Assembly (NCBI GenBank): GCA_023248855.1
Contig: JAHFDS010000004.1
Span: 27,876-91,875 of the forward strand
Direction: 5' to 3'
Source: Myxococcales bacterium
Lineage (GTDB): Bacteria > Myxococcota_A > Polyangia > JAHFDS01
Length of the DNA stretch: 64,000 nt
The notes beneath the pieces are model-generated. The model had not been told where the DNA came from, made no database searches, and saw only the letters and a program-made list of their open reading frames with translations. A program made the position numbers and the translations under genes. Positions 14,777 to 41,370 of this stretch are shown one piece after another (positions within the stretch are counted from its first letter, which is position 1; each line of letters starts with the position of its first letter).

Positions 14777-14780
14777 CCTA

Positions 14781-26392: not shown

Positions 26393-27440
26393 GGTCGCTC
26401 CCACGGCTTCCAAGCAGCGGACGAACCAGCTCACGGACCCCGCCGATCTCGTTGACCCAGGAATGCAGCCGCCGCATCCCGGTGTCACGGTCGACGATCG
26501 GTACGTAGCCGAGATCGCGCTCCGCGGCGGTCAGGTCGTAGGTGCTCGTCAGGGTGAGGAGGCTGACCCCGTAGCGCGAGATCGGGGGGGCCACGCGGCG
26601 AGCCAGGTACGGTAGCTTCCAGATCCAGTCCACCACCGTGGCAATGGCGCTGGCGAGCCGCGGGCTCAAACGCCGTCGCGGAGGGGGCGCCGAGAACGCC
26701 GTGGCGAGCTGCGCGATGAAGGCCCAGACGTCGGTCTGTTCCCGGTCCGTCACGAAGTACGCGTGGCCCCCCACCCGCGGGGCCGTCCCCGCCGCGACGA
26801 TCGCGGCCGCCGCGTTTTCGCAGTAGCAGATCGCCGCCCGGACCGCTCGCCCGCCGGACAGATCGGGGAGCTTGCCCTCGATCAGCTTGGCGAGCAGCCT
26901 CGGCAGCGGCCCCATGCGATCACGAGGCCCCCACACCGCGCGCGGGCGAATGGCACAGGTCGCGATTCCACGGCCGTTTTCACCGAGGACGAGCTTTTCC
27001 GCGGCCGCCTTGGTCTCGCAATAGAGGTTCAGGTGGCGCCGGGGATAGGGATAGCGCTCGTCGATGTCCACGTGCGGCTTGCCGTCCGCGACCACGCTCG
27101 GACTGCTCACGAAGACGAAGCGTTCCACCCCGTTTCCGCGGCTGGCCGAGAGCAGGTTTCGGGTTGCGTGGACGTTGGCCGCGTAGAACTGCCGCCGGCT
27201 GCCGAGATCCGTGACGCGTGCCGCGGCGTGGTAGACGATCTGCACGCCGCGCGTGGCACGCTCGGCCGTGTCCTCGGTTTCGAGATCGCCGACGGCCAGG
27301 TCGATTCCAGGGAGCCGGCGCAGATGGCTGAGGTCGCTCGAGGGTCGCACCAGCACGCGCACCTGGTATCCAAGGGCGAAGCAGCGGTCCACGACGTGGC
27401 TGCCGAGGAACCCCGACGCCCCGGTGACGAGGACCTTCAC
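26385..27440 (-). CDS. NAD(P)-dependent 3-beta-HSD / epimerase-family reductase (OleD / LstD-like by context)
   Basis: GTG start 27440 overlaps the upstream stop (GTGA). Rossmann motif VLVTGASGFLGSHVV and YxxxK in LYCETKAAAE. This is the only believable part of the 1041-aa track ORF 26385..29510. Confidence 0.85.
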   Translation of the reverse strand: MKVLVTGASGFLGSHVVDRCFALGYQVRVLVRPSSDLSHLRRLPGIDLAVGDLETEDTAERATRGVQIVYHAAARVTDLGSRRQFYAANVHATRNLLSASRGNGVERFVFVSSPSVVADGKPHVDIDERYPYPRRHLNLYCETKAAAEKLVLGENGRGIATCAIRPRAVWGPRDRMGPLPRLLAKLIEGKLPDLSGGRAVRAAICYCENAAAAIVAAGTAPRVGGHAYFVTDREQTDVWAFIAQLATAFSAPPPRRRLSPRLASAIATVVDWIWKLPYLARRVAPPISRYGVSLLTLTSTYDLTAAERDLGYVPIVDRDTGMRRLHSWVNEIGGVRELVRPLLGSRGSDHA

Positions 27441-29380
27441 GGGCGCGGGCTCCGGGCCGCGCGGGCGAGGGGGCCCCACCACGTCGCGCCGAGCAGGAAC
27501 GTGCAGGCGACGGCTCGCAGGTCCGAGAAGCCCGCACGCCGGGCGTGTGGGAGCGCGATGAATACCTGCAGGCCGTGGACGACGATGCTGAAGAAGGCGT
27601 CGATCCACCACAGCGCGCGCAGCGTCGGGCTCGCGAGCGGCCATGCGAGGCCCACAAGGAGGAAGATCCAGCCCGCAATGGGGACCAGCTGAAGCACTCC
27701 GACGGATGCGACGCGACCTTCGCGTGGCAGCCGCGAGGCGGCCCACAGGGCGAGCTCCTCGCGCTTGATCTTCGCGTTGTGGCGAACGTCGACCGGAAAC
27801 GATGGGTGGAATAGAAACGTCTCGAGGCCCGCGGTCAGGCTGTGCCGCGCGGCCAGGTGGCAGAGCTCTCCGCGGATGCGCGCGCGCACCGCTCGGCGGA
27901 CGCGCTGGCGCAGCTCGATGCAGACCACGGGTACCGGCGCGCCGGGGGAGCCGACGCCCACCAGCGCGCTGCGGTACACATCGGGATGGGCGTTGAAGAC
28001 CCCCTCGACCTGCACGGAGTACAGCGGGCCCCGCTTCGTGTTGACCCGATGGCTCTTGCGGCCACAGAACCAGAGGCGGCCCCGCTCGTCTACCCATCCG
28101 AGATCGCCCGTGCGATGCCAGCGCCGTCCCTGGTCGGGGATCTTGAAGAGCGCGTTGGCCTCCGGGTTGCGGTGATAGCTGCGGCTGACGACGGCGCCGG
28201 AGATGACGATCTCGCCGACCTCGCCGGGTGGTGCCCGGAGGGCGTTCGACCAGGCCGCGATCGGCCCGTCCGAGATCTGCACGATTCGCGCGTCGAGCTC
28301 GTCGGTGGGCTGTCCCACGCAGGTGCCCTGACCGGCGTGAGTGCGCGCGGCGGTCTCCCCGAGGATCTGGGAGGATTCGATGGAGGAGATCGGCGTCGCC
28401 TCGGTGGCGCCGTACGTGGTCTCGAGCCGGGCGTCGGCGGACAAGAGCGCACGAAAGCGCTCCACGATCGCGGGCGTCACGGGCGCCCCCCCGCATACCA
28501 CCGTGCGCAGGCTCGGCAGGCTGGTGTCCCGCGCCTGTGCGCAGTGCGCGACTCGGTGCAACAGCGCCGGAGAGGCGAACATGTGGGCCACACGAAACGC
28601 CGCGATGGCCTCGAGGATCTTTCGCCCATCGACGGACGCTGGGCGCGAGGGATCCATCGGCGCCAGCACCGCGGTGAAGCCGAGCAGCAGATCCAGGATC
28701 GCCATGAACGGCAGCGTCACGAGTGTGACCTCGTCCTCGGCGGGCGTTGGCAAGGCGCGAACCAGCGCACGCACGCGCCGTAGCATCGCCTCGACGGCGC
28801 CGTGCGTGACCTCGACGCCCTTGGCGGGGCCGGTGCTGCCGGTGGTGAAGCTGATGAGCAGGAGATCCTCGACCGTGGTCCTTGCGAGCGGGAGATCGCC
28901 GCTTGTGGAGCGTGCGATCCGGGCCAGCGAGGCCCCACCCCAGCACCAGCGCGGACCGACGGTGACGAGGGTCCGGAGCGTGGAAAACGTGCCGGGCCGC
29001 AGCACGCGCACCAGGTGGGCGAGGGGGATCCCCACGAAGGCGTCCGCACCCACCGCGGCGTAGCAGTGGAGCATGCGTCGGACCCCCATACCCGGATCGA
29101 CCACCACCGGAACCGCTCCGAGCTTGAAGAGAGCGAAGAGGATCGCGAACAGCTCCGAGCCGGGCTTGACCATGACGATGGTCCTCGTGCCTCGTCCGAT
29201 CCCATGCGACGCGAAGCCGCGCGCGCACGCATCCGACTCCGCGTCGATCTCGCGGTAGGTGCGCTGCGCCCAGCGGGTGGCGCCGCCGGCGCGAGCGGGA
29301 AACACGAGCGCGCGGCGATCGGGGAACCGCCGGGCGTTCTCGCGCAGGTGCTCGGCAACGTTCAGGGGCGCGTTCAGCAT
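27437..29380 (-). CDS. ANL-superfamily ligase of the OleC / LstC (beta-lactone synthetase) type, with a C-terminal membrane extension
   Basis: Cores ISFTTGSTGPAKGVEVTH, YGATEA, HRTGDLGWVDERGRLWFCGRKSHRV and tail FPVDVRHNAKIKREELALWA. The assignment to the OleC type rests on gene context (thiolase pair upstream, 3-beta-HSD downstream) and is not verified by search. Confidence 0.7.
   Translation of the reverse strand: MLNAPLNVAEHLRENARRFPDRRALVFPARAGGATRWAQRTYREIDAESDACARGFASHGIGRGTRTIVMVKPGSELFAILFALFKLGAVPVVVDPGMGVRRMLHCYAAVGADAFVGIPLAHLVRVLRPGTFSTLRTLVTVGPRWCWGGASLARIARSTSGDLPLARTTVEDLLLISFTTGSTGPAKGVEVTHGAVEAMLRRVRALVRALPTPAEDEVTLVTLPFMAILDLLLGFTAVLAPMDPSRPASVDGRKILEAIAAFRVAHMFASPALLHRVAHCAQARDTSLPSLRTVVCGGAPVTPAIVERFRALLSADARLETTYGATEATPISSIESSQILGETAARTHAGQGTCVGQPTDELDARIVQISDGPIAAWSNALRAPPGEVGEIVISGAVVSRSYHRNPEANALFKIPDQGRRWHRTGDLGWVDERGRLWFCGRKSHRVNTKRGPLYSVQVEGVFNAHPDVYRSALVGVGSPGAPVPVVCIELRQRVRRAVRARIRGELCHLAARHSLTAGLETFLFHPSFPVDVRHNAKIKREELALWAASRLPREGRVASVGVLQLVPIAGWIFLLVGLAWPLASPTLRALWWIDAFFSIVVHGLQVFIALPHARRAGFSDLRAVACTFLLGATWWGPLARAARSPRP
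27440..27725 (-). other. Hydrophobic C-terminal extension (about 3 predicted TM helices) on the OleC-like ligase
   Basis: Sequence: VGVLQLVPIAGWIFLLVGLAWPL...LRALWWIDAFFSIVVHGLQVFIAL...LRAVACTFLLGATWWGPL. Confidence 0.6.
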
Positions 29381-30255
29381 CGGTACACCGCGCAGGCGCT
29401 CGTGAGCCCGGCACCGGCGACGGCAAACAGGACCTCGACGTGATCGCCCAGGCGACGCTCCGCGAGCGCGCGATGGTAGCCGAGCGCGAGCGCAGAAGAG
29501 TGCGGCTCACCGTGGCCGGGGGCGGTGACGACGCTTCGTGCCGCTACCCCGAGCGCCGTCGCGAGGCGGTCTGCGAAACCCAGCGAGATCCGAGAGGTGA
29601 CGAAGAGGGTTTGCGACAGGTCGATCTGGTGCGACGCCGCGTGCCCGCGGATCGAGGTCACCAGGAGATCGAGGACGCGCTCCTCGTAATCGGGATCGCG
29701 TCGCAACGTCAGGCATTCGCGGCCGCGGTGGCCGCTGTCGCCGATCGCCAGGTAGCCTTCGCTGCCCGCCGAGTCGCGCGCTGCATCGTACGTGGTCACC
29801 GGGCCGAAACCGCGGCCAGGGTGATCGTCGTGGCCGAGCAGGACGGCCGCGCCGAGCGCGCGGATCGGGAAGCCGTGGGCGACTCGCTTCGACGGGTGGG
29901 CATCGCTCGAGACGATGAGGACCTTGCGCGTCTCGCCGAGCGCGAGGAACGCGCTCGCGACCTGCACGGCGTTGAGGAACCCGCACGCACCGTTCATGAG
30001 ATCGAAGGAGAAGGCAGCCTTCGGGTGCGCCACGTAGTCGAGGCTGATCCCGAGCTCGCGTTGGATGAGCGCTGCGATCCCGGGTTCCGTGAGGTTGTCG
30101 TCGCGATAGATCCCGACATGGATCAGGAGGTCAATCTCGTCGGGACCGAGTCCGGCCGTCTCGAGGCAGGCCCGAGAGGCCGCCGTGGCGTGGGTGAGCG
30201 CGCTCGCGATTTCCGGAGCGCAGCTCGATCCTGTGGCGAGGATGATGGCGCCCAT
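29374..30255 (-). CDS. KAS-III/thiolase-fold protein lacking the His-Asn pair (non-catalytic partner; LstB / NltB / PqsB-like)
   Basis: 293 aa. FDLMNGACGFLNAV keeps a Cys, but the His and Asn positions read FVTSRISLGF and GEPHSSALALG. It carries TEP (NLTEPGIAALIQRELG) at the position where FabH has F-P. Confidence 0.7.
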   Translation of the reverse strand: MGAIILATGSSCAPEIASALTHATAASRACLETAGLGPDEIDLLIHVGIYRDDNLTEPGIAALIQRELGISLDYVAHPKAAFSFDLMNGACGFLNAVQVASAFLALGETRKVLIVSSDAHPSKRVAHGFPIRALGAAVLLGHDDHPGRGFGPVTTYDAARDSAGSEGYLAIGDSGHRGRECLTLRRDPDYEERVLDLLVTSIRGHAASHQIDLSQTLFVTSRISLGFADRLATALGVAARSVVTAPGHGEPHSSALALGYHRALAERRLGDHVEVLFAVAGAGLTSACAVYRC

Positions 30256-30256: not shown

Positions 30257-31315
30257 TCACACCTCGAGCGACGAGATGGTGGCGGAGACGCACCCGGTGA
30301 CGATCCCCGACGCCGCCGGAACGAACAGGATCTTGTTGCCTCGCTGGATGCGCCCTTGCCGGAGGTGATGGTCGAGCACCACGAAGTGGGACGTCGTGGC
30401 GGTGTTGCCGTACTCCTCCACGCAGCTCAGGGATCTCGGGACCTCGTGTCCTAGCTCCGGGCCGGCCACCTTGGAGAAGAGGTGCATCGCGAGCGTCCCG
30501 ACCTGGTGGTGAATGACGTGGTCGAAGCGTTCCGAAGCGAACGTGGCACCCCTTCGAGCCAGGACGTCGGCGAGAAAGGCGGGCCACAGCTTGATCCGAT
30601 GCCGGCTGTGCAGCTCCAGGTTGTTCGCGTACATGGCCATGCCCGGTTGCTGATCGCTCGGCATGCCGAGGCACATGAGGGCGTACTCGGCACAGGTCAC
30701 GAGCTCGATGTAGTGGATCCGATCGCGCTCGTCCTCCGATCGGTCGATGATCACCGCTGCCCCGGAGTCCCCCACGGTGAGTGAAGCCAGCTGTGGGTCG
30801 CGCGCATCCCTGACCTCCCGAGTGGCGGTCTCGGCGATGGGCGTGATGCACTCTCCACTGACGACCATCCCGGATCGGACGATCCCCGCCTTGATCATCC
30901 GATCGAGGAGCATGACGCCGGTCATCATTCCGGCGCAGGCGTTGGAGAGATCGAAGTGGAGCGCGCCATGCGCCCCGATGGCGCGCTTGATCCAGAGGGA
31001 GAACGCCGGTTCGAAGTAGATCCGGTAGCCGCCCACCTCGTCATTGCGGGCACGCGAGATGGAGGTCGACACGATGACGTCGAGCTGCTCGGCCCGGTAC
31101 CGAGATCGCGCCAGGCAGTTCTTCGCCGCGAGCAACGCGAGGGCCAGCGAGTCCTGGTCTGCGTCGCGGACTCGACGGTTCCGGATCCCGGTGAATCCCT
31201 CCAGGTCATCGGCTGACGCGGCGGTCATGCCGGCCATGAGCTCAGCGGTCGCCTGGACCGTCGCCGGTAGGTAGGCGCCGAGCGCCTCGAATCGTGTGAA
31301 GCGCGCGGTCGTCAT
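30257..31315 (-). CDS. KAS-III/thiolase-fold condensing enzyme with a complete Cys-His-Asn triad (OleA / LstA-like by context)
   Basis: FDLSNACAGMMTG (Cys codon ~30935-37), VIHHQVG, YGNTATTSH. FEP (RIYFEPAFSLWIKRAIG) occupies the FabH F-P position. Its ATG overlaps the PKS stop (ATGA at 31312-31315). Confidence 0.8.
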   Translation of the reverse strand: MTTARFTRFEALGAYLPATVQATAELMAGMTAASADDLEGFTGIRNRRVRDADQDSLALALLAAKNCLARSRYRAEQLDVIVSTSISRARNDEVGGYRIYFEPAFSLWIKRAIGAHGALHFDLSNACAGMMTGVMLLDRMIKAGIVRSGMVVSGECITPIAETATREVRDARDPQLASLTVGDSGAAVIIDRSEDERDRIHYIELVTCAEYALMCLGMPSDQQPGMAMYANNLELHSRHRIKLWPAFLADVLARRGATFASERFDHVIHHQVGTLAMHLFSKVAGPELGHEVPRSLSCVEEYGNTATTSHFVVLDHHLRQGRIQRGNKILFVPAASGIVTGCVSATISSLEV

Positions 31316-34300
31316 GCGGCCTCGGTTCGACGCGGGATGGTGGACATCCCGAGCCGCTCGAGCAGGTGGGCGGCCAGTGTCTCCACGGTCGCGTGGTCAT
31401 ACAGCTCGTGGACCTCGATCCGGGGCTCCAGCGAGAGCTCGTGCTGCGCCCGGCTACGGACCTCCACCGCCATGAGGGAATCCAGGCCGAGATCCATGAA
31501 CGTCTCGCTGCCCGGCGCCAAGGGCGAGTCGAGGCCCAGCACCCGCGCCACCTCGACCGCGATCCAGGTCTGCAGGAGCGGACCGCGGCGCTCCTGCGCC
31601 GCCGCCGCGAGCTCCGCGCGCAGCTGTCCGGCCGGCGCGCGATCGTCGGGGCCATCCCCGATCGTCGGGCTCATGCCCAGATCGGACACGAGCGGGCGTG
31701 GCCCCCGCGCCTCGTAGCTGCGGCGGAACCGCGGCCAGTCCACATCTGCCACGATCGGAGCCGGGGCTCCCGCCTGCAGGGCGGCGCCGATCGAGCGCAG
31801 CGCCACGTCCGGATCGAGCTTGCGGATCCCGCGCTCCTCGAGCGCGACGCCGGTCTCGCCGGCGGCCATTCCGTCTCCGGCCCAGGGGCCGAAGGCCACG
31901 GTGGTGGCGGGGATCCCACGGGCCCGGGCGCTTCGGGCCCACACCTCGAGGAAGGCGTTGGCGGCTGCGTAGGCGGCCTGACCACCGCTGCCCCAGACCC
32001 CGGCGATGGATCCGAAGCAGACGAACGCGTCGAGCGGCTGGCCCACAATCAGGGCTTCGAGCGCGCGGGTCCCGGCGACCTTGGGTGCCAGCGTGGCCGC
32101 CCAGCTCTCCGCGTCGAGCGGGCCCACGGTCGCCGTGCGGGGCGCTGCCGCGCAGTGCACGACGGTACGCAGCGGCATTCCTGCGGGCAGGCGTCGAGCT
32201 GCGGCGCGCAGGGACTCCACGTCCGCCACGTCGGCGTCGGCCACGGTAATGCCCACGCCGCGAACCTCGAGCGCCGCCACCGTCGCGGCCGCACCGGGCG
32301 TCTGGAGGCCACGCCGGCCGACGAGGAGGAGATGCTGGGCGCCCCGTTCCGCCAGCCAGCCGGCGATGCGCCGGCCGAGCGCGCCGAGCCCGCCCGTGAC
32401 CAGCGCGGCGCCCGTGGTGCGAAAGCCTCGTGCCGCCCCGGGCACGGCGGCAGGAACCACGCGCGGCACCCAGGCCCCGCCGGCGCGCAGCGCGAGCTGG
32501 TCGTCCACAGCGCGGGCGATGAGCACCTGGCCGAGTTGCCGCGCCAGGGCAACATCGAGCGGCCCCGGAAGGTCGACCAGGCCGCCCCAGGCCGATGGCT
32601 CCTCGAGCGCGAGCGTGCGCCCGAGCCCCCACGCCACCGCCTGCTCTGGGTTCGACGGAACGTCGCCGGCTCCAATCGATACCGCGCCTCGTGTGACCAG
32701 CCACAGGGGGATTCGTGCCGTGATCGCGGTGGTGGTCATGCCGAGCAGCACCCCCGAAGCGATCGGGCTCTGTTCGAGCAGGAGGACGAGGGCGGTGGCG
32801 CCGCTCGCATCCTGCGTCACCTCGCCGGGCGTGATCAGCTCCGTTTCGGCCCCGGCTTGCCGGAGGGCGGATGCCAGCAGCGAGCCATCCCCGGCTGTCG
32901 CCATCACGCGAAAGCGACCGGCACCTCGGGCGCGGCGCACGGGCGGCACGGAAGCCTGCCGCTGCCAGGCCAGCTCGTAGAACGGTCCCGTCGGGCCGTC
33001 CTCGCTCACAAGGTTCTGGTCGCCGGCGGCGATGGCTGCCCTCGCCTTGCCGAGCCAGTAGCGCTGGCGTTGCCAGGGATACGTGGGCAAGTCGACGACC
33101 GGGCCCCCGACCGGGAACACACCGCGCCAGTCGACCTCCGCGCCGCGCGCGTGGAGTGCCCCGAGGACCTCGAGCATCGCAACGCTGGCCGGCACGTCGG
33201 CACGCAGGGCTTCCAGATCCAGGACGACCTCGGGGCCCGAGGCTCCTAGAGCACCTGGTACGACGGCCGGGATCTCGAGCGCCCGATGGACCCGTGGATC
33301 CTTGATCCGGTGGCCGTCGGGTTGCGCGCTCGCGACCACGAGCCGGGCGGCCTCCGCGAGCGAGAGCACGCCGCCGATTTGGGCTGCGACGATCTCGCCG
33401 ACGCCTGCGCCACCGAGGCGATTGGGCACGATGCCCCACGAGCGCCAAAGGGCCCCGAGCGCGACCCCTGCTGCGAAGGCCACGCGCTCGGCTGGCCGCT
33501 CATCCGTTGCGTCCTCCCGGCTGGCTCGGGCGAGCGCCCCGATGGCTGCTGCGAGCGCTTGCCGGAACACGGGCCAGGTCTCGCCGAGCTCCTGGGCCGT
33601 CCGCTCCAGATCGCCGCCGCCGCCCGGGAACCACAAGGCCAGCGAGGGTGCATTTCCCGCGGTGCCGCGCGCCACGCCGTCGGGCGTCTGGCCGCCGCCG
33701 ACGGCGATCAGGGTGTGGCGCAGCGCATCGAGGGAGCTCGCCGTGATCGCCAGCCTGCAAGCGAACGATGTTCGCGAGGTGGCCAGCGTCCGCGCGAGAT
33801 CGCCGAGGGCGAGCTCCGGATGGGCATCGAGATGCGCGGCCAGCCGGGTGGTGGCCTCGGCGAGCGACGTCTCATCGCGTCCGGACAGGACCACGAGCTC
33901 GGCCGGCCGGCGCGTCGTCGCTGCGGTCACCGGCGTCTCCGGCGCCGCGGACAGCACGACGTGGGCGTTGGTGCCGCTGAAGCCGAAGCTGCTCACGCCG
34001 GCCACGCGGGGACCGTCCGGAAACGGCATGGCCTGCCGGGCCACGGCGACGGGCCACTGGTCCCATGCGATCATCGGGTTGAGCGCCTCGGCGTGGAGCG
34101 TCGCGGGGATGCGGCCGCGTTGCACGCACAGCGCCGCCTTGATGAGGCCGGCCACGCCCGCGGCCCCTTCGGTGTGCCCGACGTTGCTCTTGACCGAGCC
34201 GATCACGACCGGGCGATCCGCCGGGCGCCCCGCCCCGATCGCCGCTCCGATCGCCTGAACCTCGATCGGATCCCCGAGCGAGGTGCCGGTTCCGTGGCAT

Positions 34301-37300
34301 TCGACGTAGCCCACCTCCGCCGGAGCGAGGCCAGCGTTCGCGAGGGCGCGGACGATCACGTCCTGTTGCGAGGGCCCGTTCGGCGCCGTGAAGCCGTTGC
34401 TGCGGCCGTCCTGGTTGACCGCCGAGCCGCGGATGACCGCGACGACCGGATCGCCGTCGCGGAGGGCGTCGGACAGGCGCTTTAGCACCAGCACGCCGCA
34501 GCCCTCCGCGCGCACGTAGCCATCGGCGCCAGCCGAGAAGCTACGGCAACGTCCGGTCGGCGACAGCGCCCGGAGCCTGCTGAAGTAGACCGTGCACTCG
34601 GGGGCGAGGGTGAGGTTGACGCCGCCGGAGAGCGCGAGGTCGCACTCCCTGAGGCGTAATCCCTGGCAGGCCAGGTGAATCGCCACGAGCGCCGACGAGC
34701 AGGCCGTATCGATCGGGAGGTTCGGCCCCTTGAGCCCGAGCCAGTAAGAGAGGCGCCCTACCGTGGCGCTGTGGGCCGTGCCGAGATACGAGTAGCCGTC
34801 GATGCGACCGGGATCGCCCATGGCCCAGTACTGGTAGTCGTTGGCACTGATGCCGACATAGACCCCCGTGTTGCTACCCATGAGCGACCCCGGGACGATC
34901 CCTGAGCGCTCGAGGGCCTCCCAGGTGCACTCGAGCAGCAATCGCTGCTGCGGGTCGATGGCGACCGCTTCGCGCGGAGCGATGCCGAAGAAAGCCGCGT
35001 CGAAGCGGTCGGGCAGCTCGACGAAGCCGCCCCAGCGGCTGCTCATCTTGCCGGCAGCACTCGGGTCGGGGTCGTACCAGTCGTCGATTGCCCAGCGATC
35101 GCTCGGCACCTCCGTGATCGCGTCCACGCCATCCTCGAGTAGCCGCCACAGCGCGTCCGGACCCTGGACGCCCCCCGGAAAACGGCAGCCGATGCCGACG
35201 ATGGCCACGGGCTCGTCCGTGGCAGCGCGCCGCGACCGCCCGGGTGCCGACACCGTCGAATCCTGACCCTCGACGCGTGTCAGCAGGTGATCGCAGAGCG
35301 CACCCAGGCTGGGGTAGTCGAAGGCGATCGTCGCCGGCAGTGAGGTGCCCAGGCGCTCGATGAGGGCGCTGCGCAGCTCGACCGCCATCAGGGAATCCAG
35401 GCCGAGCTCCTGGAACGGAGCCTCGAGCGGCACGTCGGCCGGCGATGGCAGCGCCAGGATCCGCGCCAGCTCCGTGCGCACGATCGCCTCGAGGTTGCCA
35501 GCCGTGGCCGGCGGCCTCCGGCCGAGCTGGGTGGAGGGATGGGCCGCACGGCCCTCGATCGTGGACCAGTCCACGGGCGCACCGGCGACGTGCAGCCGCG
35601 CCATCGCTTCGAGCGCGCTCGCATGCTCGTCGCGCCCCCGCGTGAGCGACGCCACCCGTACGACCGGCGCGTCCGGTCGCGCCAGGGCGTCCATGCCCAG
35701 CAGCACGGATTGGGGGCCGATCTCGACGCAGATCTCGGCGCCCACCTGATCGAGCGCGATGAGCCCCTCTGCGAAGCGAACCGAGGATCGGACCTGGCGG
35801 GCCCAGTAGGCTGGATCCATCATGAGCGCCGCGCCGGCGCGAGCGCCCGTGACGTTCGAGATGAGCGCGAGCCGCGGAGGTCGCAGCGCGAGCGTGGTGG
35901 CCAGCTCCGTCAGCCCCTCGAGCATCGGATCCACGAGCGGCGAGTGAGCGGCCAGGGAGATCGCGAGCCGCTTCGTGCGGACGCCGCGGGCCGCAAACCA
36001 GGCCGCGACGGCCCTCGCATCGGCCGCAGGGCCCGAGATCACGACCGCTTCGGGGCCGTTGACCGCCGCGACGGCGACCCGCTCTCGCAACGGGGCGAGG
36101 GCGTCCAAGACAACCGCCTCGGAGGCCGCGATCGCGATCATCTCGCCCCCCGGTGGCAAGGCCTCCATGGCGCGCGCCCGTGCAACCACGAGCCGGCAAC
36201 AGTCGGCCAGGCCGACGACGTCCGCCACGCAGGCGGCGACGAGCTCGCCGAGGCTGTGCCCGAGGACGACGTCGGGACAAATGCCGCGCGTACGCCACAG
36301 CGCGACCAGCGCCCATTCGAACGCGAAGAGCGCGGGCTGGGTCGTGCCCGTGCGATCGAGCAGGGCTGCGCGGGGTGTGCCTGCGGCAGCCCACATGATC
36401 TCGCGGAGCGGGTGCTCCAGATGGCGATCGAGCTCGGCGACTGCCTCGTCGAATGCGGCGCGGAACGCGGGCTCGGTCTCGTGGAGGCGGCGCCCCATGC
36501 CCGCGACCTGGGCGCCCTGGCCGGCAAAGAGAAACGCGACCCGGGGGTGGGTACGCGCCTCTCCGACGAAGACACCTTCGGCGAAGAGGCCCGCAGCATG
36601 AGCATCCAGGGAGCGAGCGGCGGCAGCGGCATCGGCCGTGATCACGCACAGGCGATGCGGCTCGTCCGGCGCGGAGGTGCTGCAGGAGGCGACCACGTCG
36701 CAGAGCCCATCCTGGGGACGGTCACGGAGCCGGGCGCCAAGGCGCGCCGCTGCCTCCTGCAAGGCCTCGGTGCTGGGACCCGAGATACGCAGCACGTGCA
36801 ATGGACGCGGGTCGTCGGCAGCGGCGACCGTGGTCGATGTTCGGGGGCGGGGTTCGATCCAGTACCGTTCGCGCTGCCAGGCGGTGGTGGGCAGCGCGAC
36901 CCGCCGGGCGCCAGGTGCCACGACGCCGCGCCAGTCGACCTGACCACCCATCGCGTACCAGCTTCCCAGCGCTTGCAGCAACGCCTCCGGCTCCGGGCGC
37001 CCGGTCCCGAGCGAGCCGAGCAGCACCCCCGGCGCCTGCAGGCCCGCGCGCACGAGCTCGAGCAGCGTCGGCCGAGGACCGATCTCGATGAACGTCTTTG
37101 CGCCGGCCGCTTGCAACGCGCGAGCACTCGCCGAGAACCGGACGTCGTCGCGCGCGAGGCGCATCCAGTAGGCTGGCGTGGCGATCTCGGTGCCGGCGAG
37201 GGCGCCGGTGAAGCTCGACACGATCCCGAGGGACGGGGCCTGATAGCGCACCGATGCGGCCACGCGCGCGAGGCTCTCCGTCGCGCAAGACAGCGTAGCC

Positions 37301-40300
37301 CCGCCTGCGGGCAGCGCCTCGGTCAGCCGGCTCCACGCGGTGACGAGTCGCGCCGCGTCCTCGAGTGGGAACACGCCTGCGACGCACGCTGCGGCGATCT
37401 CCCCGACCGACTGGCCGGCCACGAGATCCGGTGCCACGCCGAAGGAGCGCCACTGTGCGGCCAGCGCCCACTCGAGCGCGAACAGCGCCGGCTGTGACCA
37501 GCCCGGCTGATCCAGAAGCCCGGCGTCGGCAGGGCTCGGCCACATCACGTCGCGCAGTGGACGCTCGAGGTCGGGATCGAGAGCGGCAAGGGCGGCATCG
37601 AGCGCATCCCTGAAGACGGGCCACGCCGCGTGGAGCTGCCGTCCCATGTCAGCGGTGTGCGCGCCTTGCCCGGTGAACAGGAATGCCAGCTTGCCGCGCC
37701 GGCTCGCCGCGTGGGCTTCGCGGCAGGCGACCCCGACCGGGGTCTCACCGCGCGCGACGGAATGGAGCACCGATCGGAGCGCGATCCGAGACTCGACCGC
37801 CAGCGCGAGGCGGTGACCGAGGTGGGGCCGGAGCGCAGTGCTGGCGGCGAGATCCGCGAGGGTCATGTCCGGATGAGCGTCGAGGTGCTCCCGAAATCGA
37901 CCCACCGAGTCGAGGAGCGCCGCCCGCGACTTGGCCGACAGCACCACGAGCTCCGCTGGGCGGGCCGCGGGCACGGCTCGATCAGCGGCCGCAGCCCCCT
38001 CCTCCAGCACCACGTGCGCGTTCGTACCGCCAAAGCCGAACGCACTCACACCGGCGCGCCGCGGCGTTGCGCCTCGCGGCCATTCGATCGACTCGCTCGC
38101 CACGCGGATCGGAAGGGTCTCCCATCGGATGTGCGGGTTCGGCCTCGAGAGGTGCAGGTTCCGCGGAATTCGGCCCCGCCCGAGCGCCAGCACGGTCTTG
38201 ATGAGGCCGGCGATCCCCGCTGCGGACTCGGTATGCCCGATGTTCGTCTTCACCGAGCCGAGGACGAGAGGCCAGGCCGGATCGCGCCCTTCGCAGAGCA
38301 CCGCCGCCGCGGCCTGCACCTCGATCGGATCGCCGAGCGGCGTTCCCGCACCGTGGCATTCGAGGTAGCCGACGCTGTTCGGGGCCACGGCTGCGCGCCG
38401 CACGGCCTCCCGGATCACGGCCTCTTGAGCGGGCCGGCTCGGCGCGGCGAGCCCGTTGCTGCGGCCGTCCTGGTTCACCGCCGATCCCCTGACCAGCGCG
38501 AGCACGGTGTGCCCGAGACGCCGCGCGTCGGACAGCCGCTCGAGCACGATGATCCCGGCGCCCTCGGCGCGGACGTAGCCATCGGCGTCCGCAGAGAACG
38601 TCCGACAGCGACCCGTGGGAGACAGGGCCCGAAGCCGGCTGAAGTAGATCGAGGTCTCTGGCTCGAGCACGGTGTTGGCTCCACCAGCGATCGCGAGGTT
38701 GCAATCGCCGGAGCAGAGCGCCTGGCAGGCGAGATGGACCGCGACCAGCGAGGACGAGCACGCGGTGTCGATGGGGACGCTCGGCCCCTGCAGCCCGAGC
38801 CAGTACGACAGCCGTCCGGCCATGGTGCTGTGCATCGTCCCGAGCAGGGTGTAGGCGTCGATCGCGCCACCGAGCGCGCGCGCCTGGTACTCGGTCTGGC
38901 TCAGTCCCAGGTAGACGCCGGTCTTCGATCCCACGAGCGCCGCCGGATCGATGCCCGCTCGCTCGAATGCCTCCCAGGTGGTCTCGAGCAGCAGGCGCGC
39001 CTGCGGGTCGATGCTCGGAGCCTCACGCGCGGAGATGCCGAAGAAGCCAGGCTCGAAGCGATCGAGGCCGGACAAGAAGCCGCCCCACCGAGACGTCATC
39101 TTGCCCAACGCCGACGGATCAGGATCGTGGTAGGCGTCCACGTCCCAGCGCTCGCACGGTACTTCGCTGATGGCGTCACGGCCCTCGTCGAGCAGCGTCC
39201 AGAACGCCTCCGGATCGCTCGCCCCGCCGGGGAAGCGACAGCCGATGCCGACGATGGCGATCGGTTCTTGGGCGGAACCGGAATCGACCGACTGGGCGCT
39301 GGGCGCCGGAGCGCCGGGGCCACTGCCCAGCGCCACGACGTGCGCGGCCAGCGACATCACCGTGGGGCAGCTCCAGACCGCGGTGGCGTCGATCCGATGG
39401 CCGGTCCAGGTCTCGATGGCGGCGGCCAGCTCGAGGGCGCGCAGGGAATCGACCCCGAGGTCGTGGAAGGCTGCATCATCGTCTGGTGCAGCGCCCCCCG
39501 TCGCCTCGTGTCCGCGCGAGACGAAGGCCCGGATGCGATCCGCCACCGCCGTCACCGTGACCGCGGCAAGGCCGGTCGGCGCCGGCGAAAGCTCGCCGTC
39601 GCGCTCGGCGTCCGCCGAGCGCCAGGTGTGCAGGAGCTCGAGCCGGCCTTCCCGCCTGGCCTGCCGGCACGCCAGTCGTTGGATCTTTCCACTGCTGGTC
39701 TTGGGGATCGTGCGGGGCTCGAGCAGCAGGAGCTCTTCGAGGCGCACTCCGCAGGTCTCCAGGACGGCACGCGCCGCCACCCGCGCGAGCTCGCCGAACC
39801 CCTGCTCCCCGGAATCATGGAGGCGGCCGGTCTCTACCTCGGCCGCCACGATCAGCTGCTCCTCGGTACCCGAGTCGACCGAGAAAGCCGCACAGCACCC
39901 CGCGCGCAGCGCCGGGTGACTCTCCTCGATGGCCCGCTCGACATCCTGCGGATAGAGGTTGCGCCCCCGGAGGATGAGGAGGTCCTTGCGCCGGCCGGTC
40001 AGGAACAGCTCGCCGTCGTGCAGAAAGCCCAGATCGCCCGTACGGAGGAACGGACCCTCGTCACTGGACAGCAGCCGGGCCGCAAACGTCTCCTGGCTCT
40101 GCTCAGGTCGACGAAAGTAGCCTTTGGCCACACTCGGCCCGCAGAGCCAGATCTCGCCGAGCTGCTGCTCCCCGAGCGCCTGGCACGCCTCCGGATCGAC
40201 GATGCGGAGATCCATGTCGTGCCAGGGGCAACCTTGCGACGCGAAGCGTTGCGTTCGCCCGGTGCCCGGCGCGGCGAGCACGACCTGCCCTCGCTCGAGC

Positions 40301-41370
40301 GCGTCAGCGCACAGGGTCAGCGTGCGTGGACCGCGACCGATCCCTCGGGTCGTGACGAGCACGGTGGCCTCCGCGAGACCCCAGGCGGGCTGCAGCGCCT
40401 CGGCCGAGAACCCGAGCGGCGCGAGCTTCTGCGCGAATCGCTCCATCGTGTCGGGGCGCGTGGGCTCGGCCGCGTTGACCGCGACCCGCCAGGAGGACAG
40501 GTCGAGTCCCGCCAGGGCGGCCAGCGGGACCCTCGCGACGGTGAGATCGTAGGCGAAGTTCGGCGCCATGCTCACGGTACCGCGGAAGCGCGAGATGGCG
40601 CGCAGCCACTCGGCTGGATTTCGGGCGAAGTCCGAGGGACGCATCAGCGTGCAGGTCGCGCCGAGCCAGGCCGTCGCCAGCAGGTTCATCACGAGCCCCA
40701 TGTCGTGAAACAGCGGCGCCCAGCACACGAAGGAGGTCTCGGCGCCGAGCCGCCAGGCCGCCTCCATCATGGTGAGGTTGTGTGTCAGGTTGGCGTGGGT
40801 GACGACGATGCCCTTCGGATCTCCGGTCGAGCCCGACGTGTACTGGAGAAACGCGGTGTCCTGCCGGTCCGACGGCTTCAGGTCGGCGAGCTCTTCGTCC
40901 GCGACCGCGTTCAGATCGAGCCAGGTTGCCCCGTCGAGCCGGGCAACGGGCTCGACGAGCGTGCGTACTTCTGCCGCGGCGAGGATGAATTGCGCCTGGG
41001 CGTCCCGAACGATGGCCGCCATGCGCGGCAATGAGCGAGCCAGTCGGCTCGGATCCGGCGGTGTAACCGGTACCGCGACCGCGCCGGCGTAGAGGCATCC
41101 GAAGAAGGCCGAAACGAAGTCGAGCCCGGTCTGAAACAGCAGGAGCACCCTCTGGCCAGCCGCACCGGATCGCACGAGCCGAGCGGCCACGGCACGCGCG
41201 GACCGGTCGAGCTCCTGCCAGGTCATCTCATCGACCTCCCCATGCGCCGTCCCGGATACGAGGAACCGAAACGCGAGGCGCGATCGCGCGCTGGAATCCC
41301 CGTAAGCGCGCACGCGCTCGAGGAGCGTGGCCCCGGCTGCTGCTTGCACGGTCGAAGAGATCTCGCTCAT
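31312..41370 (-). CDS. Type I modular polyketide synthase, 3352 aa: FAAL-ACP-KS-AT(dead)-AT-ACP-KS-AT(relic)-KR-ACP, no TE
   Basis: Continuous ORF with all the domain motifs listed in the sub-features. Every long ORF on the opposite strand (e.g. 37630..41034, 1134 aa) is Arg/Gly/Pro-rich noise. Confidence 0.95.
   Translation of the reverse strand: [3352 protein letters not shown]
31380..31590 (-). other. PKS domain: ACP3 (terminal; no TE follows)
   Basis: [16 protein letters not shown]. Ser codon at 31477-79. About 55 residues remain before the stop. Confidence 0.85.
31865..32983 (-). other. PKS domain: ketoreductase
   Basis: [55 protein letters not shown] (Ser/Tyr/Asn). Confidence 0.85.
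33055..33642 (-). other. PKS domain: AT relic (~195 aa; GGAGVGE replaces GHSxGE)
   Basis: [11 protein letters not shown] replaces FxGQGxQ. [14 protein letters not shown] (33391-33420) lacks both the His and the Ser. The rest of the fold is missing, but the post-AT linker YPWQRQRYW is kept. Confidence 0.7.
33950..35214 (-). other. PKS domain: KS2 (Cys-His-His intact)
   Basis: [27 protein letters not shown] (Cys codon 34699-701); [26 protein letters not shown]. Confidence 0.9.
35290..35500 (-). other. PKS domain: ACP2
   Basis: [16 protein letters not shown]. Ser codon at 35392-94. Confidence 0.85.
35551..36540 (-). other. PKS domain: AT2, the only intact acyltransferase
   Basis: [17 protein letters not shown] (Ser codon 36253-55) and the His block [11 protein letters not shown]. 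LAAH is neither the HAFH nor the YASH specificity motif. It is preceded by a second KS-AT-linker-like segment ([21 protein letters not shown]...). Confidence 0.85.
36856..37689 (-). other. PKS domain: AT1, predicted inactive (GQSVG plus ~65-75 aa internal deletion removing the catalytic His block)
   Basis: [11 protein letters not shown]...[12 protein letters not shown] (Ser codon 37408-10). Alignment with the neighbouring AT2 shows loss of the segment equivalent to [13 protein letters not shown]...[12 protein letters not shown]. The distance from FLF to VDW is ~253 aa, versus ~328 aa in AT2. Confidence 0.7.
38000..39267 (-). other. PKS domain: KS1 (Cys-His-His intact)
   Basis: [27 protein letters not shown] (Cys codon 38758-60, residue 871); [26 protein letters not shown]. 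Confidence 0.9.
39340..39560 (-). other. PKS domain: ACP1
   Basis: [14 protein letters not shown]. Ser codon at 39445-39447 (residue 642). Confidence 0.85.
39640..41370 (-). other. PKS domain: fatty acyl-AMP ligase (FAAL) loading domain
   Basis: [84 protein letters not shown]. Confidence 0.85.

What the first reader, a model, noticed from the sequence alone, without database searches (positions are those of the whole stretch)
31312..41370. PKS with tandem ATs (first one gutted), an AT relic in module 2, and no release domain
The architecture read from motifs is FAAL-ACP-KS-[linker-AT1]-[linker-AT2]-ACP-KS-[AT relic]-KR-ACP. AT1 has GQSVG and has lost ~65-75 residues, including the catalytic-His block. 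The module-2 AT is reduced to ~195 aa, with GGAGVGE in place of GHSxGE. Only AT2 is intact, and its specificity motif LAAH is neither the malonyl (HAFH) nor the methylmalonyl (YASH) signature. AT2 must therefore serve two ACPs, or a trans-AT is used. KS-AT-AT 'mixed loading/first extension' modules are, from memory, a myxobacterial speciality (soraphen, stigmatellin). Here a FAAL has apparently taken over loading and the loading AT is decaying. There is no KR in module 1 and no TE, which predicts a 3-hydroxy-5-oxo-acyl-ACP handed directly to the downstream thiolase pair.
Basis: partly seen in the sequence, partly recalled or inferred. Interest (0 to 1): 0.7.

Follow-up and report, generated by a model that had tools for sequence, protein, structure and literature searches.

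The report
Polyketide synthase with two dead acyltransferases
A 3352-residue two-module polyketide synthase, probably from a myxobacterium, has lost the catalytic parts of both of its regular acyltransferase domains and carries one extra, unusual acyltransferase. It is translationally coupled to a lipstatin-type beta-lactone gene set, so it most likely builds the hydroxy-fatty-acid arm of a new lipase-inhibitor-like lipid.

Summary
ORF 31312-41370 (-) reads FAAL-ACP-KS-[linker-AT1-postAT linker]-[linker-AT2]-ACP-KS-[linker-AT relic-postAT linker]-KR-ACP.

- **AT1:** has GQSVG, Trp in place of the carboxylate-binding Arg, and a ~68-residue deletion that removes the small subdomain and the His motif.
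- **Module-2 AT:** has GGAGVGE and has lost ~160 residues.
- **AT2:** is complete (GHSLGE, Arg, catalytic His) but carries LAAH, seen in none of ~320 other ATs inspected.
- **Release and loading:** there is no TE or R domain, no KR in module 1, and no other AT gene in the window.

AT1 is not a decaying loading AT. It is 55-61% identical to ordinary malonyl extender ATs but 26-34% to the loading ATs of myxobacterial ACP-KS-AT-AT modules. It also sits in the canonical KS-linked position with its own post-AT linker. AT2 is the added domain.

The "thiolase pair" is an LstAB/NltAB-type heterodimer. It heads an lstABCD-like beta-lactone cassette, followed by a stand-alone condensation-fold acyltransferase and a type II TE, with a convergent A-CP-(FAAL-PCP-TE) operon. 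Nine related cassettes lack a PKS, and no PKS orthologue was found.

Verdict: a new variant of known kinds, of moderate interest.

The parts
31312..41370 (-). PKS gene, 3352 aa: FAAL-ACP1-KS1-AT1(dead)-AT2-ACP2-KS2-AT relic-KR-ACP3
   Evidence: GC3 is 0.86 across the frame.
39601..41370 (-). FAAL-type adenylation domain (aa 1-590)
   Evidence: Pfam AMP-binding 39-419. The best named NCBIfam models are fatty-acid--AMP ligases (E 1e-122 to 1e-104), all below their cut-offs. The domain is fused to ACP1.
39331..39573 (-). ACP1 (Ser642 in LGVDSL)
37996..39273 (-). KS1, with Cys (DTACSS 868), HGAGT and NIGH intact
36835..37965 (-). KS-AT linker, AT1 and post-AT linker (aa 1136-1512). AT1 has GQSVG, Trp1346 for Arg117, and a ~68-aa deletion of the small subdomain and His motif. 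Predicted to be a folded scaffold.
   Evidence: AF2 pLDDT 89.9. TMq 0.87 to CurL KS-AT.
35551..36792 (-). Second KS-AT-type linker plus AT2 (aa 1527-1940). GHSLGE, Arg at Ser+25, and LAAH in the HAFH position. No post-AT linker.
35266..35493 (-). ACP2 (Ser1993)
33931..35217 (-). KS2, with Cys (DTACSS 2221), HGTGT and NVGH intact
33001..33912 (-). KS-AT linker, AT relic and post-AT linker of module 2 (aa 2487-2790). GGAGVGE; ~160 aa of the AT lost; YPWQRQRYW retained.
31681..32973 (-). KR (aa ~2800-3230). Has TGGLGALG and catalytic Tyr3134; Trp at Tyr-8 and no LDD, so A-type.
31351..31587 (-). ACP3 (Ser3298). Only 54 residues follow it to the stop.
30257..31315 (-). LstA/NltA-like KAS-III thiolase, 352 aa (SNACAG Cys, HHQVG His, GNT Asn). 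Its start overlaps the PKS stop (ATGA).
29374..30255 (-). LstB/NltB-like truncated KAS-III partner, 293 aa. No Cys-His-Asn triad; Glu57 in NLTEPG.
   Evidence: Literature.
27437..29380 (-). OleC/LstC/NltC-like beta-lactone synthetase, 647 aa
   Evidence: NCBIfam olefin beta-lactone synthetase, 546.6 bits, E 5.5e-164. 54-57% identical to the syntenic gene in L001, L003 and L084.
26385..27442 (-). OleD/LstD/NltD-like 2-alkyl-3-oxoalkanoate reductase (3beta-HSD family). The start is probably the GTG at 27440.
25184..26392 (-). Stand-alone condensation-domain-fold acyltransferase, 402 aa (FHGVMDAQG = HxxxD). No Pfam hit.
24372..25184 (-). Type II thioesterase, 270 aa
   Evidence: Pfam PF00975, E 2e-43
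18684..21206 (+). Adenylating enzyme. It is the orthologue (53-57%) of the A enzyme that accompanies a carrier protein and the C-fold enzyme in L125-L127.
21252..21515 (+). Stand-alone carrier protein, 87 aa (GLLDSF)
   Evidence: Equivalent genes occur in L084 and L125-L127.
21512..24436 (+). FAAL-like A-PCP-TE protein, 974 aa, convergent with the PKS operon

Best explanation
**Shown**
- The gene encodes a two-module type I PKS in which both ATs at the canonical KS-linked position are catalytically dead.
- AT1 keeps the alpha/beta-hydrolase large subdomain and both flanking linkers. It has lost the small subdomain, the catalytic His and the carboxylate-binding Arg.
- The module-2 AT is reduced further and has neither Ser nor His.
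- One extra AT (AT2) is inserted between the post-AT linker of module 1 and ACP2. It brings its own copy of the KS-AT linker domain and is tethered on both sides by short Pro/Ala/Thr-rich stretches.
- AT2 has the full catalytic set, is malonyl-clade by overall sequence, and carries LAAH instead of HAFH.
- The PKS stop overlaps the start of an LstA-like gene. That gene heads an lstA-lstB-lstC-lstD-like cassette, followed by a condensation-fold acyltransferase and a type II TE.

**Inferred mechanism**
1. The FAAL adenylates a fatty acid and loads it on ACP1.
2. AT2 loads a malonyl-type extender on ACP2, and KS1 condenses to give a beta-ketoacyl-ACP2.
3. ACP3 is charged in trans, most simply by the tethered AT2 and otherwise by the cell's FabD.
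4. KS2 extends again, and the A-type KR gives an L-(3S)-3-hydroxy-5-oxoacyl-ACP3.
5. The dead AT1 and the relic persist because the KS-linker-AT-post-AT-linker scaffold is needed for the KS dimer architecture.
6. With no TE domain, the chain leaves through the LstAB-like heterodimer. Transfer is either direct from ACP3 or follows TEII hydrolysis and re-activation.
7. The heterodimer condenses the chain head-to-head with a second fatty acyl thioester. The OleD-like reductase reduces the new 3-keto group, and the OleC-like synthetase closes a beta-lactone.
8. The KR-derived hydroxyl, now at the delta position as in lipstatin, is the likely site where the stand-alone C-fold enzyme attaches the acid. 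That acid is activated by the convergent A enzyme and carried on the 87-aa carrier protein.
For: - **Domain anatomy and dead ATs:**
- **AT1 is predicted to fold:** pLDDT 89.9, and it superposes on the CurL KS-AT didomain at TMq 0.87.
- **AT1 is extender-type by descent:** 55-61% identity to HAFH/Arg ATs against 26-34% to loading ATs. The post-AT linker follows AT1, not AT2, unlike genuine tandem modules.
- **No other AT in 64 kb:** tblastn and Pfam on the flanking ORFs.
- **KS1 and KS2 triads are intact:**
- **The KR is A-type:** Trp at Tyr-8 and no LDD. This would give the same 3S configuration as the LstAB substrate (3S)-3-hydroxytetradecadienoyl-CoA (PMC12141560).
- **Cassette identity:**
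  - Cys/His/Asn are present in the A subunit.
  - The truncated B subunit has Glu57, matching NltB E57 and LstB E60 (bioRxiv 10.1101/856955).
  - OleC and OleD NCBIfam hits have E 5.5e-164 and 2.9e-62.
  - The A, B and OleC-like genes recur in that order in L001, L003/4, L005, L082-L084, L122-L124 and L126; the OleD-like gene is also present wherever the contig runs far enough, except in L005. L085 has only the A-B pair.
  - L003 also has a formyltransferase and an NRPS, like lstE/F.
- **C-fold enzyme:** AF2 pLDDT 86.9, Foldseek to NRPS C domains at TM 0.6-0.72, and invariant H128/D132/G135. It is homologous to the N-terminus of the LstE-like NRPS in L003/L122 and to stand-alone genes next to A+CP in L084 and L125-L127.
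- **Operon coupling:**
- **Trans-complementation is feasible:** an AT-null cis-AT module was complemented by an MCAT (PMC6164871).
Against: - No step has been tested biochemically.
- AT2 itself is divergent. It has 18 substitutions at positions >=90% conserved in relatives, including HAFH->LAAH. It could therefore have a non-malonyl specificity, or be impaired.
- Nothing shows that AT2 can reach ACP3.
- LstAB and NltAB are known to use acyl-CoAs, not acyl-ACPs.
- No orthologue of the PKS was found, so conservation of the dead domains cannot be checked.
- AlphaFold confidence for AT1 may be inherited from intact homologues in the alignment.
- OleC- and OleD-like scores are below NCBIfam equivalog cut-offs.
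- The role of the FAAL-PCP-TE protein is unassigned.
Confidence: 0.55

Rival explanations
1. The module descends from a myxobacterial mixed loading/first-extension module (ACP-KS-AT_L-AT_ext). A FAAL replaced the loading function, and AT1 is the redundant loading AT in decay.
For: - The domain order ACP-KS-AT-AT is the same as in soraphen, myxothiazol, myxalamid, chondramide and miuraenamide, where the first AT loads the starter.
- AT1 has a non-Arg residue (Trp) at Ser+25 and GQSxG. Both features also occur in some first ATs of Sorangium and Kitasatospora tandem modules.
Against: - AT1 is 55-61% identical to ordinary Arg/HAFH extender ATs and only 26-34% to loading-type first ATs.
- Its closest BLAST hits are extender ATs.
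- The post-AT linker follows AT1 rather than AT2. In 13 of the 16 tandem modules that could be read, that motif was found only after the second AT.
- The Gln and Trp changes are two of 15 substitutions at otherwise conserved positions, as expected from decay.
Confidence: 0.12
2. The architecture is as described, but module 2 (and perhaps module 1) is loaded by a discrete AT encoded elsewhere, either FabD or a trans-AT. AT2 serves only ACP2, or has a different job such as loading an unusual alpha-substituted extender.
For: - MCAT can complement an AT-null cis-AT module (PMC6164871).
- AT2's LAAH motif and other substitutions suggest changed specificity.
- The relic keeps both linker elements, which form the surface trans-ATs dock on in trans-AT PKSs (general knowledge).
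Against: - There is no AT gene within the 64-kb window.
- No CCR or methoxymalonyl genes for unusual extenders were found in the window.
- AT2 is flexibly tethered in the same polypeptide, which makes it the nearest AT.
Confidence: 0.25
3. Module 2 does not elongate. KS2 only passes the beta-ketoacyl chain to ACP3, where the KR reduces it. The PKS then adds a single C2 unit and delivers a plain 3-hydroxyacyl thioester, the exact substrate class of LstAB.
For: - The module-2 AT is the most degraded part (47/102 conserved positions kept).
- Module 1 has no KR and module 2 has no AT, so together they make one complete reducing module.
- LstAB's natural substrate is a simple 3-hydroxyacyl thioester.
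- Non-elongating KS-containing split modules are known in trans-AT PKSs (general knowledge).
Against: KS2 retains the full Cys-His-His set (DTACSS, HGTGT, NVGH). Known non-elongating KS0 domains usually lack the HGTGT histidine.
Confidence: 0.15
4. The PKS is a decaying, non-functional gene, and the beta-lactone cassette works on ordinary acyl-CoAs as in its PKS-less relatives.
For: - Three AT regions show accumulated damage, and even AT2 is unusually divergent.
- Nine related cassettes work without any PKS.
- No orthologue was found.
Against: - The frame is uninterrupted for 3352 codons, with GC3 0.86 throughout.
- All other catalytic motifs are intact: the two KS triads, three ACP serines, KR NADPH site and Tyr, and the AT2 Ser/Arg/His.
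- The damage is confined to the two ATs that AT2 could replace.
- The ATGA coupling to lstA is kept.
Confidence: 0.08

Closest known systems
Lipstatin cluster lstABCDEF (Streptomyces toxytricini) and nocardiolactone nltABCD (Nocardia)
   Same: - Same gene order: KAS-III A (Cys-His-Asn), truncated KAS-III B with a catalytic Glu (E57 here; NltB E57, LstB E60), an OleC-type beta-lactone synthetase, and an OleD-type reductase.
- One partner is expected to be a 3-hydroxyacyl thioester, whose hydroxyl is later esterified.
- A C-fold enzyme homologous to the N-terminus of LstE-like NRPSs is present.
   Different: - Here the 3-hydroxyacyl arm is apparently made by a dedicated FAAL-primed PKS instead of coming from beta-oxidation.
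- The LstE function is split into stand-alone A, carrier protein and C proteins.
- No formyltransferase is present.
- Extra FAAL-PCP-TE and TEII genes are present.
- The A subunit is only ~54-57% identical to its actinobacterial homologues.
OleABCD olefin pathway
   Same: It shares the OleA-type head-to-head Claisen condensation, an OleD-type reductase and an OleC-type beta-lactone synthetase. NCBIfam E values are 5.5e-164 and 2.9e-62.
   Different: - There is no OleB decarboxylase, so the lactone is the likely end product.
- The thiolase is a heterodimer rather than an OleA homodimer.
- Scores are below the equivalog cut-offs.
Myxobacterial mixed loading/first-extension modules ACP-KS-AT-AT (soraphen SorA, myxothiazol MtaB, myxalamid, chondramide, miuraenamide MiuA)
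   Same: The linear order ACP-KS-AT-AT-...-ACP is the same, and the origin is probably myxobacterial.
   Different: - The first AT here is dead, extender-like in sequence, and carries the post-AT linker.
- The second AT has no post-AT linker.
- A FAAL precedes the first ACP.
trans-AT (AT-less) PKSs
   Same: - KS domains are followed by a linker but no working AT.
- One AT has to serve more than one ACP.
- Module 2 keeps only the linker elements and a stump.
   Different: - The relics are clearly cis-AT derived: the best PDB matches are the DEBS and CurL KS-AT didomains.
- The only AT is embedded in the megasynthase.
- There is no discrete AT gene in the window.
FadD32/Pks13 mycolic condensase
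   Same: A FAAL loads a long acyl chain on an N-terminal ACP ahead of KS-AT-ACP. The pathway ends in an alpha-alkyl-beta-keto/hydroxy acid.
   Different: - Pks13 performs the head-to-head condensation itself, using an AT specific for carboxyacyl-CoA, and has a TE.
- Here the condensation is assigned to a separate LstAB-like enzyme.
- AT2 matches the Pks13 AT only at E ~1e-28, against 1e-82 for CurL.

Membership tests
LstAB/NltAB heterodimeric KAS-III thiolase | Two adjacent KAS-III-like genes; the first has a Cys-His-Asn triad. | tested here: met
   30257-31315 and 29374-30255 both hit ACP_syn_III/ACP_syn_III_C. The A subunit has SNACAG, HHQVG and GNT.
LstAB/NltAB heterodimeric KAS-III thiolase | The second subunit is truncated, lacks the triad and has a conserved Glu (LstB E60, NltB E57). 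| tested here: met
   The B subunit is 293 aa. It has NGACG (Cys out of register) and PHS instead of GNT, with Glu57 in NLTEPG.
LstAB/NltAB heterodimeric KAS-III thiolase | Forms a heterodimer and catalyses non-decarboxylative head-to-head condensation. | not testable with these tools
   Requires co-expression and an assay.
OleC/LstC/NltC beta-lactone synthetase | Sequence membership in the olefin beta-lactone synthetase family. | tested here: inconclusive
   NF045786 scores 546.6 bits, E 5.5e-164, full length, but below the equivalog cut-off of 900. PRK09274 scores 638 bits, above its cut-off of 478.
OleC/LstC/NltC beta-lactone synthetase | Synteny between the thiolase pair and an OleD-type reductase. 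| tested here: met
   The order A-B-C-D is found here and in L001, L003, L084, L122, L124 and L126.
OleD/LstD/NltD 2-alkyl-3-oxoalkanoate reductase | 3beta-HSD/SDR family protein matching OleD models. | tested here: inconclusive
   NF042422 scores 211 bits, E 2.9e-62, full length, against a cut-off of 580. Pfam 3Beta_HSD has E 2.5e-39.
Myxobacterial ACP-KS-AT(L)-AT mixed loading module | The first AT is a functional starter-loading AT. | tested here: not met
   The AT1 His motif and small subdomain are deleted.
Myxobacterial ACP-KS-AT(L)-AT mixed loading module | The first AT is of the loading-AT lineage, and the post-AT linker follows the second AT. | tested here: not met
   AT1 is 55-61% identical to extender ATs against 26-34% to loading ATs. 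The post-AT linker follows AT1.
Canonical cis-AT modular PKS | Each module has its own active AT in the KS-linked position. | tested here: not met
   Both KS-linked ATs lack the Ser-His dyad.
trans-AT PKS | A discrete AT is encoded in the cluster, and the KSs lack AT-homologous sequence. | tested here: not met
   There is no further AT in the window. AT-homologous relics are present.
Fatty acyl-AMP ligase (FAAL) | Sequence membership and delivery to a fused or partner ACP. | tested here: inconclusive
   The top named NCBIfam hits are FAAL models (409-349 bits), but all are below their cut-offs. The domain is fused directly to ACP1. The FAAL-specific insertion was not examined.
A-type ketoreductase | Trp eight residues before the catalytic Tyr, and no LDD motif (Caffrey / Keatinge-Clay rules, from general knowledge). 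| tested here: met
   In AGVWGSGGQAAY3134, Trp is at -8. There is no LDD in 2981-3180.
NRPS condensation-domain superfamily (402-aa protein) | C-domain fold with an HxxxD motif. | tested here: met
   AF2 pLDDT 86.9. Foldseek to C domains gives E 1e-16 to 2e-19 and TM 0.6-0.72. H128, D132 and G135 are invariant in 17 homologues. There is no Pfam hit.

The most novel reading that the evidence does not exclude
This PKS may be a natural intermediate between cis-AT and trans-AT logic. A cis-AT-lineage assembly line has gutted both of its in-line ATs. It now relies on one flexibly tethered, embedded AT that charges two ACPs in different modules. That AT has also acquired a new extender specificity: LAAH with Arg retained, unseen in ~320 other ATs. 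The product would be a PKS-built, lipstatin-like esterified beta-lactone from a myxobacterium.
Probability: 0.25. Interest if true: 0.72.

Novelty: new variant of a known kind. Interest (0 to 1): 0.55.

Why it matters
- **PKS evolution and engineering.** If AT2 really serves both modules, this is a compact natural example of in-line ATs being retired to scaffolds while an added AT takes over. That bears on how AT-less (trans-AT) architectures can arise. It also supports engineering strategies that inactivate cis ATs and complement them.
- **AT specificity.** The LAAH motif with Arg retained is an untested specificity signature.
- **Natural products.**
  - The cluster predicts a new beta-lactone lipid of the lipstatin/orlistat pharmacophore class, which inhibits serine hydrolases and lipases.
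  - Its hydroxy-acyl arm would be made by a PKS rather than taken from beta-oxidation.
  - It comes from a lineage (probably Myxococcota) with no beta-lactone of this type that I know of.
- **A wider uncharacterised family.** The work also exposes an environmental family of lstABCD + A + CP + C-fold clusters, whose C-fold enzyme has no Pfam model.

Tried and rejected
- **Whole-PKS homologue search.** It timed out. The 831-aa AT1-AT2 query returned only proteins <=1453 aa and not the window's own 3352-aa protein. Long PKS orthologues are therefore probably invisible in that database.
- **Genome and metagenome scans.** The GTDB-representative scan and the JGI metagenome scan used AT1-AT2 and AT1C-AT2-ACP2 queries. 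The best matches were 40-53% identical ordinary PKSs. No orthologue turned up, and the source genome was not found. Conservation of the dead domains could not be assessed.
- **Exact-sequence look-up of the window's KAS-III gene.** The look-up, using my ORF coordinates, found nothing.
- **Synteny check.** Nine loci (twelve contigs) carrying related A-B thiolase pairs, eight of them with the OleC-like gene as well, were checked for an adjacent PKS. None had one.
- **Literature.** A search for 'LAAH' with acyltransferase and polyketide gave zero papers. A search for inactive or remnant ATs in cis-AT PKSs gave nothing useful.
- **Spurious ORFs rejected.**
  - The 1041-aa ORF 26385-29510 is a false read-through across two real genes in other frames.
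  - The 669-aa ORF 41367-43376 has no Pfam hit. Its strand and position are instead occupied by a DJ-1/ThiJ gene and an AraC gene.
- **Assembly artefact rejected.** The deletions are in frame. The relics also carry many point substitutions, and codon bias is uniform.
- **AT1 and AT2 as recent duplicates rejected.** They are 48% identical, and each is closer to other PKS ATs than to the other.
Full report
**1. What is at the coordinates**

The minus strand of 31312-41370 is one 3352-codon ORF. Its third-position GC is 0.86, typical of real genes in this ~70% GC window. Pfam finds the following:
- an AMP-binding domain (39-419);
- three PP-binding domains;
- two complete KS domains;
- three Acyl_transf_1 stretches;
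- three CurL/RhiE-type KS-AT linker stretches;
- one KR (2987-3164).

There is no TE, R, DH or ER. Motif positions are as follows:
- KS Cys in DTACSS at 868 and 2221;
- HGAGT/HGTGT at 1006 and 2359;
- N(I/V)GH at 1043 and 2396;
- ACP serines at 642, 1993 and 3298.

The N-terminal domain scores best against fatty-acid--AMP ligase models. These scores are below their curated cut-offs. The domain is fused to ACP1.

**2. The three AT regions**

*AT1.* phmmer against PDB aligns AT1 with the CurL KS-AT didomain over CurL 489-726 and then 797-937. A MAFFT alignment with intact ATs shows a clean gap of 68 columns. The gap removes the ferredoxin-like small subdomain and the xSHAFHS block. Beyond the deletion:
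- the nucleophile elbow is GQSVG;
- the residue 25 positions after the Ser (FabD Arg117) is Trp1346;
- several other near-invariant residues are changed.

*AT2.* It aligns end to end with CurL. It has GHSLGE, Arg at Ser+25 and the catalytic His, but reads ISLAAHS where CurL reads VSHAFHS.

*Module-2 relic.* It aligns with DEBS module 5 over 450-666 and then 828-900. It has GGAGVGE opposite GHSQGE and has lost ~160 residues.

*Conserved positions kept.* The table counts 102 columns that are >=90% conserved in 22 reference linker-AT-linker regions.

| Region | Kept | Substituted | Deleted |
|---|---|---|---|
| AT1 | 69 | 15 | 18 |
| AT2 | 84 | 18 | 0 |
| Relic | 47 | 27 | 28 |
| References | 92-100% | | |

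In addition, AT2 itself is unusually divergent.

**3. Is AT1 a decaying loading AT?**

The literature confirms that ACP-KS-AT-AT is a myxobacterial arrangement in which the first AT loads the starter (PMC10051162; PMC5655351). I extracted genuine tandem modules from Sorangium, Kitasatospora, Actinosynnema and MAG loci returned by the genome scan. In these:
- the first AT lacks Arg at Ser+25 (it has Gln, Met, His, Thr or Tyr) and carries VAAH, VAPH or YASH;
- the second AT has Arg and YAFH or VASH;
- in 13 of the 16 modules that could be read, a YPWQRxRYW post-AT linker motif is found after the second AT only; in the other three no such motif was found.

In the window the post-AT linker (TTAWQRERYW) follows AT1. 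AT2 runs straight into ACP2 with no such element. Over AT1's 236 retained columns:
- AT1 is 55-61% identical to ordinary malonyl-type extender ATs (GHSxG, Arg, HAFH);
- it is 26-34% identical to loading-type first ATs;
- it is 48% identical to AT2.

AT1 is therefore the original in-line extender AT of KS1. Its Gln and Trp are decay substitutions. AT2, which brings its own copy of the KS-AT linker domain, is the added domain. The AlphaFold model of linker-AT1-post-AT linker is confident (mean pLDDT 89.9, pTM 0.90). It superposes on the CurL KS-AT didomain with TMq 0.87. This is consistent with a retained scaffold, with one caveat: the alignment used contained intact homologues.

**4. AT2 specificity**

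By overall similarity AT2 belongs with malonyl ATs; it is 49-58% identical to HAFH domains. Yet LAAH was seen in none of 123 ATs in the protein hits or 201 ATs in the fetched loci. xAAH occurred only in loading-type ATs that lack the Arg.

Replacing the Phe of HAFH by Ala should enlarge the pocket (an inference from general AT knowledge). A non-malonyl extender therefore cannot be excluded. However, the window contains no CCR or methoxymalonyl genes. It also contains no further AT gene (tblastn).

**5. Genomic context**

The PKS stop overlaps the start of the next gene (ATGA). The minus-strand operon continues through these genes:
- **KAS-III A (352 aa).** It has Cys, His and Asn.
- **KAS-III B (293 aa).** It is truncated, lacks the triad and has Glu57.
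- **OleC-like adenylating enzyme (647 aa).** NCBIfam olefin beta-lactone synthetase, 546.6 bits.
- **OleD-like 3beta-HSD reductase.** 211 bits.
- **A 402-aa protein with no Pfam hit.**
- **A type II TE**.

This matches what is published for LstAB and NltAB. They are heterodimers in which only the A subunit has the triad, and the B subunit has an essential Glu (E60 in LstB, E57 in NltB). They are followed by the beta-lactone synthetase and the reductase (PMC12141560; bioRxiv 10.1101/856955).

The A, B and OleC-like genes recur in that order in eight metagenomic or MAG loci whose A subunit is 56-64% identical; the OleD-like gene follows in six of them (in L082 the contig ends first, and L005 has none). 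Some also carry a formyl- or acetyl-transferase and an NRPS, as in lipstatin. A ninth locus, L085, carries only the A-B pair. None has a PKS.

The 402-aa protein shows these features:
- It folds confidently (pLDDT 86.9).
- It matches NRPS condensation domains (TM 0.6-0.72).
- It has an invariant HxxxD...G motif.
- It is homologous to the N-terminal domain of the LstE-like NRPS in L003 and L122.
- It is also homologous to stand-alone genes that sit next to an A enzyme and a small carrier protein in L084 and L125-L127.

The window has the same A enzyme (18684-21206, 53-57% identical) and an 87-aa carrier protein (21252-21515). They lie on a convergent operon that ends in a FAAL-like A-PCP-TE gene. 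MacB/FtsX permease genes flank the cluster, as they do in L125 and L126.

**6. Mechanism proposed**

The following is shown:
- the anatomy of the PKS;
- the dead ATs and the single intact AT;
- the intact KS, KR and ACP motifs;
- operon coupling to an lstABCD-type cassette;
- the C-fold enzyme and its syntenic A and CP partners.

The following steps are inferred:
1. The FAAL loads a fatty acid on ACP1.
2. AT2 charges ACP2, and most simply also ACP3.
3. Two extensions follow, with reduction only in module 2 by an A-type KR (Trp at Tyr-8 and no LDD). This gives an L-3-hydroxy-5-oxoacyl-ACP3.
4. The LstAB-like enzyme condenses this chain head-to-head with a second acyl thioester.
5. The OleD-like enzyme reduces the product, and the OleC-like enzyme lactonises it.
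6. The C-fold enzyme esterifies the KR-derived hydroxyl.

The A-type KR would give the same 3S configuration as LstAB's natural substrate. That agreement supports the link between the PKS and the cassette.

**7. Rivals**

- **Module 2 may be loaded by FabD or a distant trans-AT.** An MCAT can complement an AT-null module.
- **Module 2 may be non-elongating**, so that the two half-modules act as one. The intact His residues of KS2 argue against this.
- **The PKS may be decaying.** Against this, the frame is intact and the damage is confined to the two ATs that AT2 could replace.

**8. Comparison and novelty**

The cassette is a member of the Lst/Nlt-type beta-lactone family by synteny and active-site pattern. 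The OleC and OleD equivalog cut-offs are not reached. The PKS fits none of the three obvious classes:
- It is not a mixed loading module, because the defining features were tested and not met.
- It is not a canonical cis-AT PKS, because the in-line ATs are dead.
- It is not a trans-AT PKS, because cis-AT relics are present and there is no discrete AT.

No orthologue was found among 185,579 species-representative genomes or in the JGI metagenome collection; the best matches were 40-53% identical. These pattern-based scans find only fairly close relatives, and the protein database seems to omit very long proteins.

I rate it a new variant of known kinds. It combines a PKS-fed lipstatin-like beta-lactone cluster with an unusual solution in which the in-line ATs are retired and one AT is appended.

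The organism is probably a myxobacterium. The evidence is GC ~70%, the best hits to Myxococcales, Polyangiaceae and Sorangium, and the neighbouring Ser/Thr kinase and FHA-sigma54 activator genes.

Noticed in passing
window 25184-26392 (-): A 402-aa protein with no Pfam or NCBIfam hit has a confident condensation-domain fold and an invariant HxxxD...G motif. Its family (17 homologues, 30-54% identical) always sits beside an adenylating enzyme and a small carrier protein, and often beside lstABCD-like genes. It looks like an unmodelled family of ester-forming C-like enzymes.
   Followed up: yes
window 18684-24436 (+): A convergent operon encodes an adenylating enzyme, an 87-aa carrier protein (21252-21515, GLLDSF) and a FAAL-like A-PCP-TE protein (21512-24436, ATGA-coupled). 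The role of the A-PCP-TE protein is unassigned; it could supply the second acyl chain.
   Followed up: partly
window 14775-16124 (+): A PF00144 beta-lactamase-family serine hydrolase (E 2e-63) lies at the edge of the putative beta-lactone cluster. It could be a self-resistance decoy or hydrolase, or a tailoring esterase. This is pure speculation.
   Followed up: no
window 16385-18942 (-): Two MacB/FtsX-type permease genes lie here. The same kind of efflux genes follows the C-fold gene in L125 and L126, which suggests a conserved export module for this lipid family.
   Followed up: partly
window 9272-14626 (-): A run of four genes encodes a GMC oxidoreductase, an aldehyde-dehydrogenase-like protein, a partial AMP-binding (LuxE-like?) protein and a class I/II aminotransferase. 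It may be a fatty-aldehyde or fatty-amine module. Whether it belongs to the same cluster is unknown.
   Followed up: no
window 26385-29510 (-) and 41367-43376 (-): Two long mechanical ORFs (1041 aa and 669 aa) are artefacts of high GC. The first spans the real OleC-like and OleD-like genes in other frames. The second covers a DJ-1/ThiJ gene (41747-42529) and an AraC regulator (42626-43879).
   Followed up: yes
L039, L051, L059 (Sorangium); L071, L073 (Kitasatospora): The first (loading) AT of several genuine ACP-KS-AT-AT modules naturally carries GQSxGE with Met or His at the Arg117 position. GQS alone is therefore not evidence of inactivity.
   Followed up: partly
window aa 1610-1940 of the PKS (35551-36543): Even the 'intact' AT2 has 18 substitutions at positions >=90% conserved in its relatives. 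Examples are VAGVFSL->VADVVGL and HAFHSxxM->LAAHSPLV. This suggests either altered specificity or relaxed constraint.
   Followed up: partly
L085 (Myxococcota_A UBA2385 contig): An LstA/LstB-like pair occurs here without adjacent OleC- or OleD-like genes. The thiolase heterodimer is therefore also used outside beta-lactone cassettes.
   Followed up: no
window 44521-48342 (-), 1313-3493 (+), 49713-50744 (+): Three regulatory genes lie around the cluster: a Ser/Thr kinase fused to an AAA/STAND ATPase, an FHA-sigma54 activator, and a response-regulator-GGDEF protein. These are regulators typical of myxobacteria.
   Followed up: no
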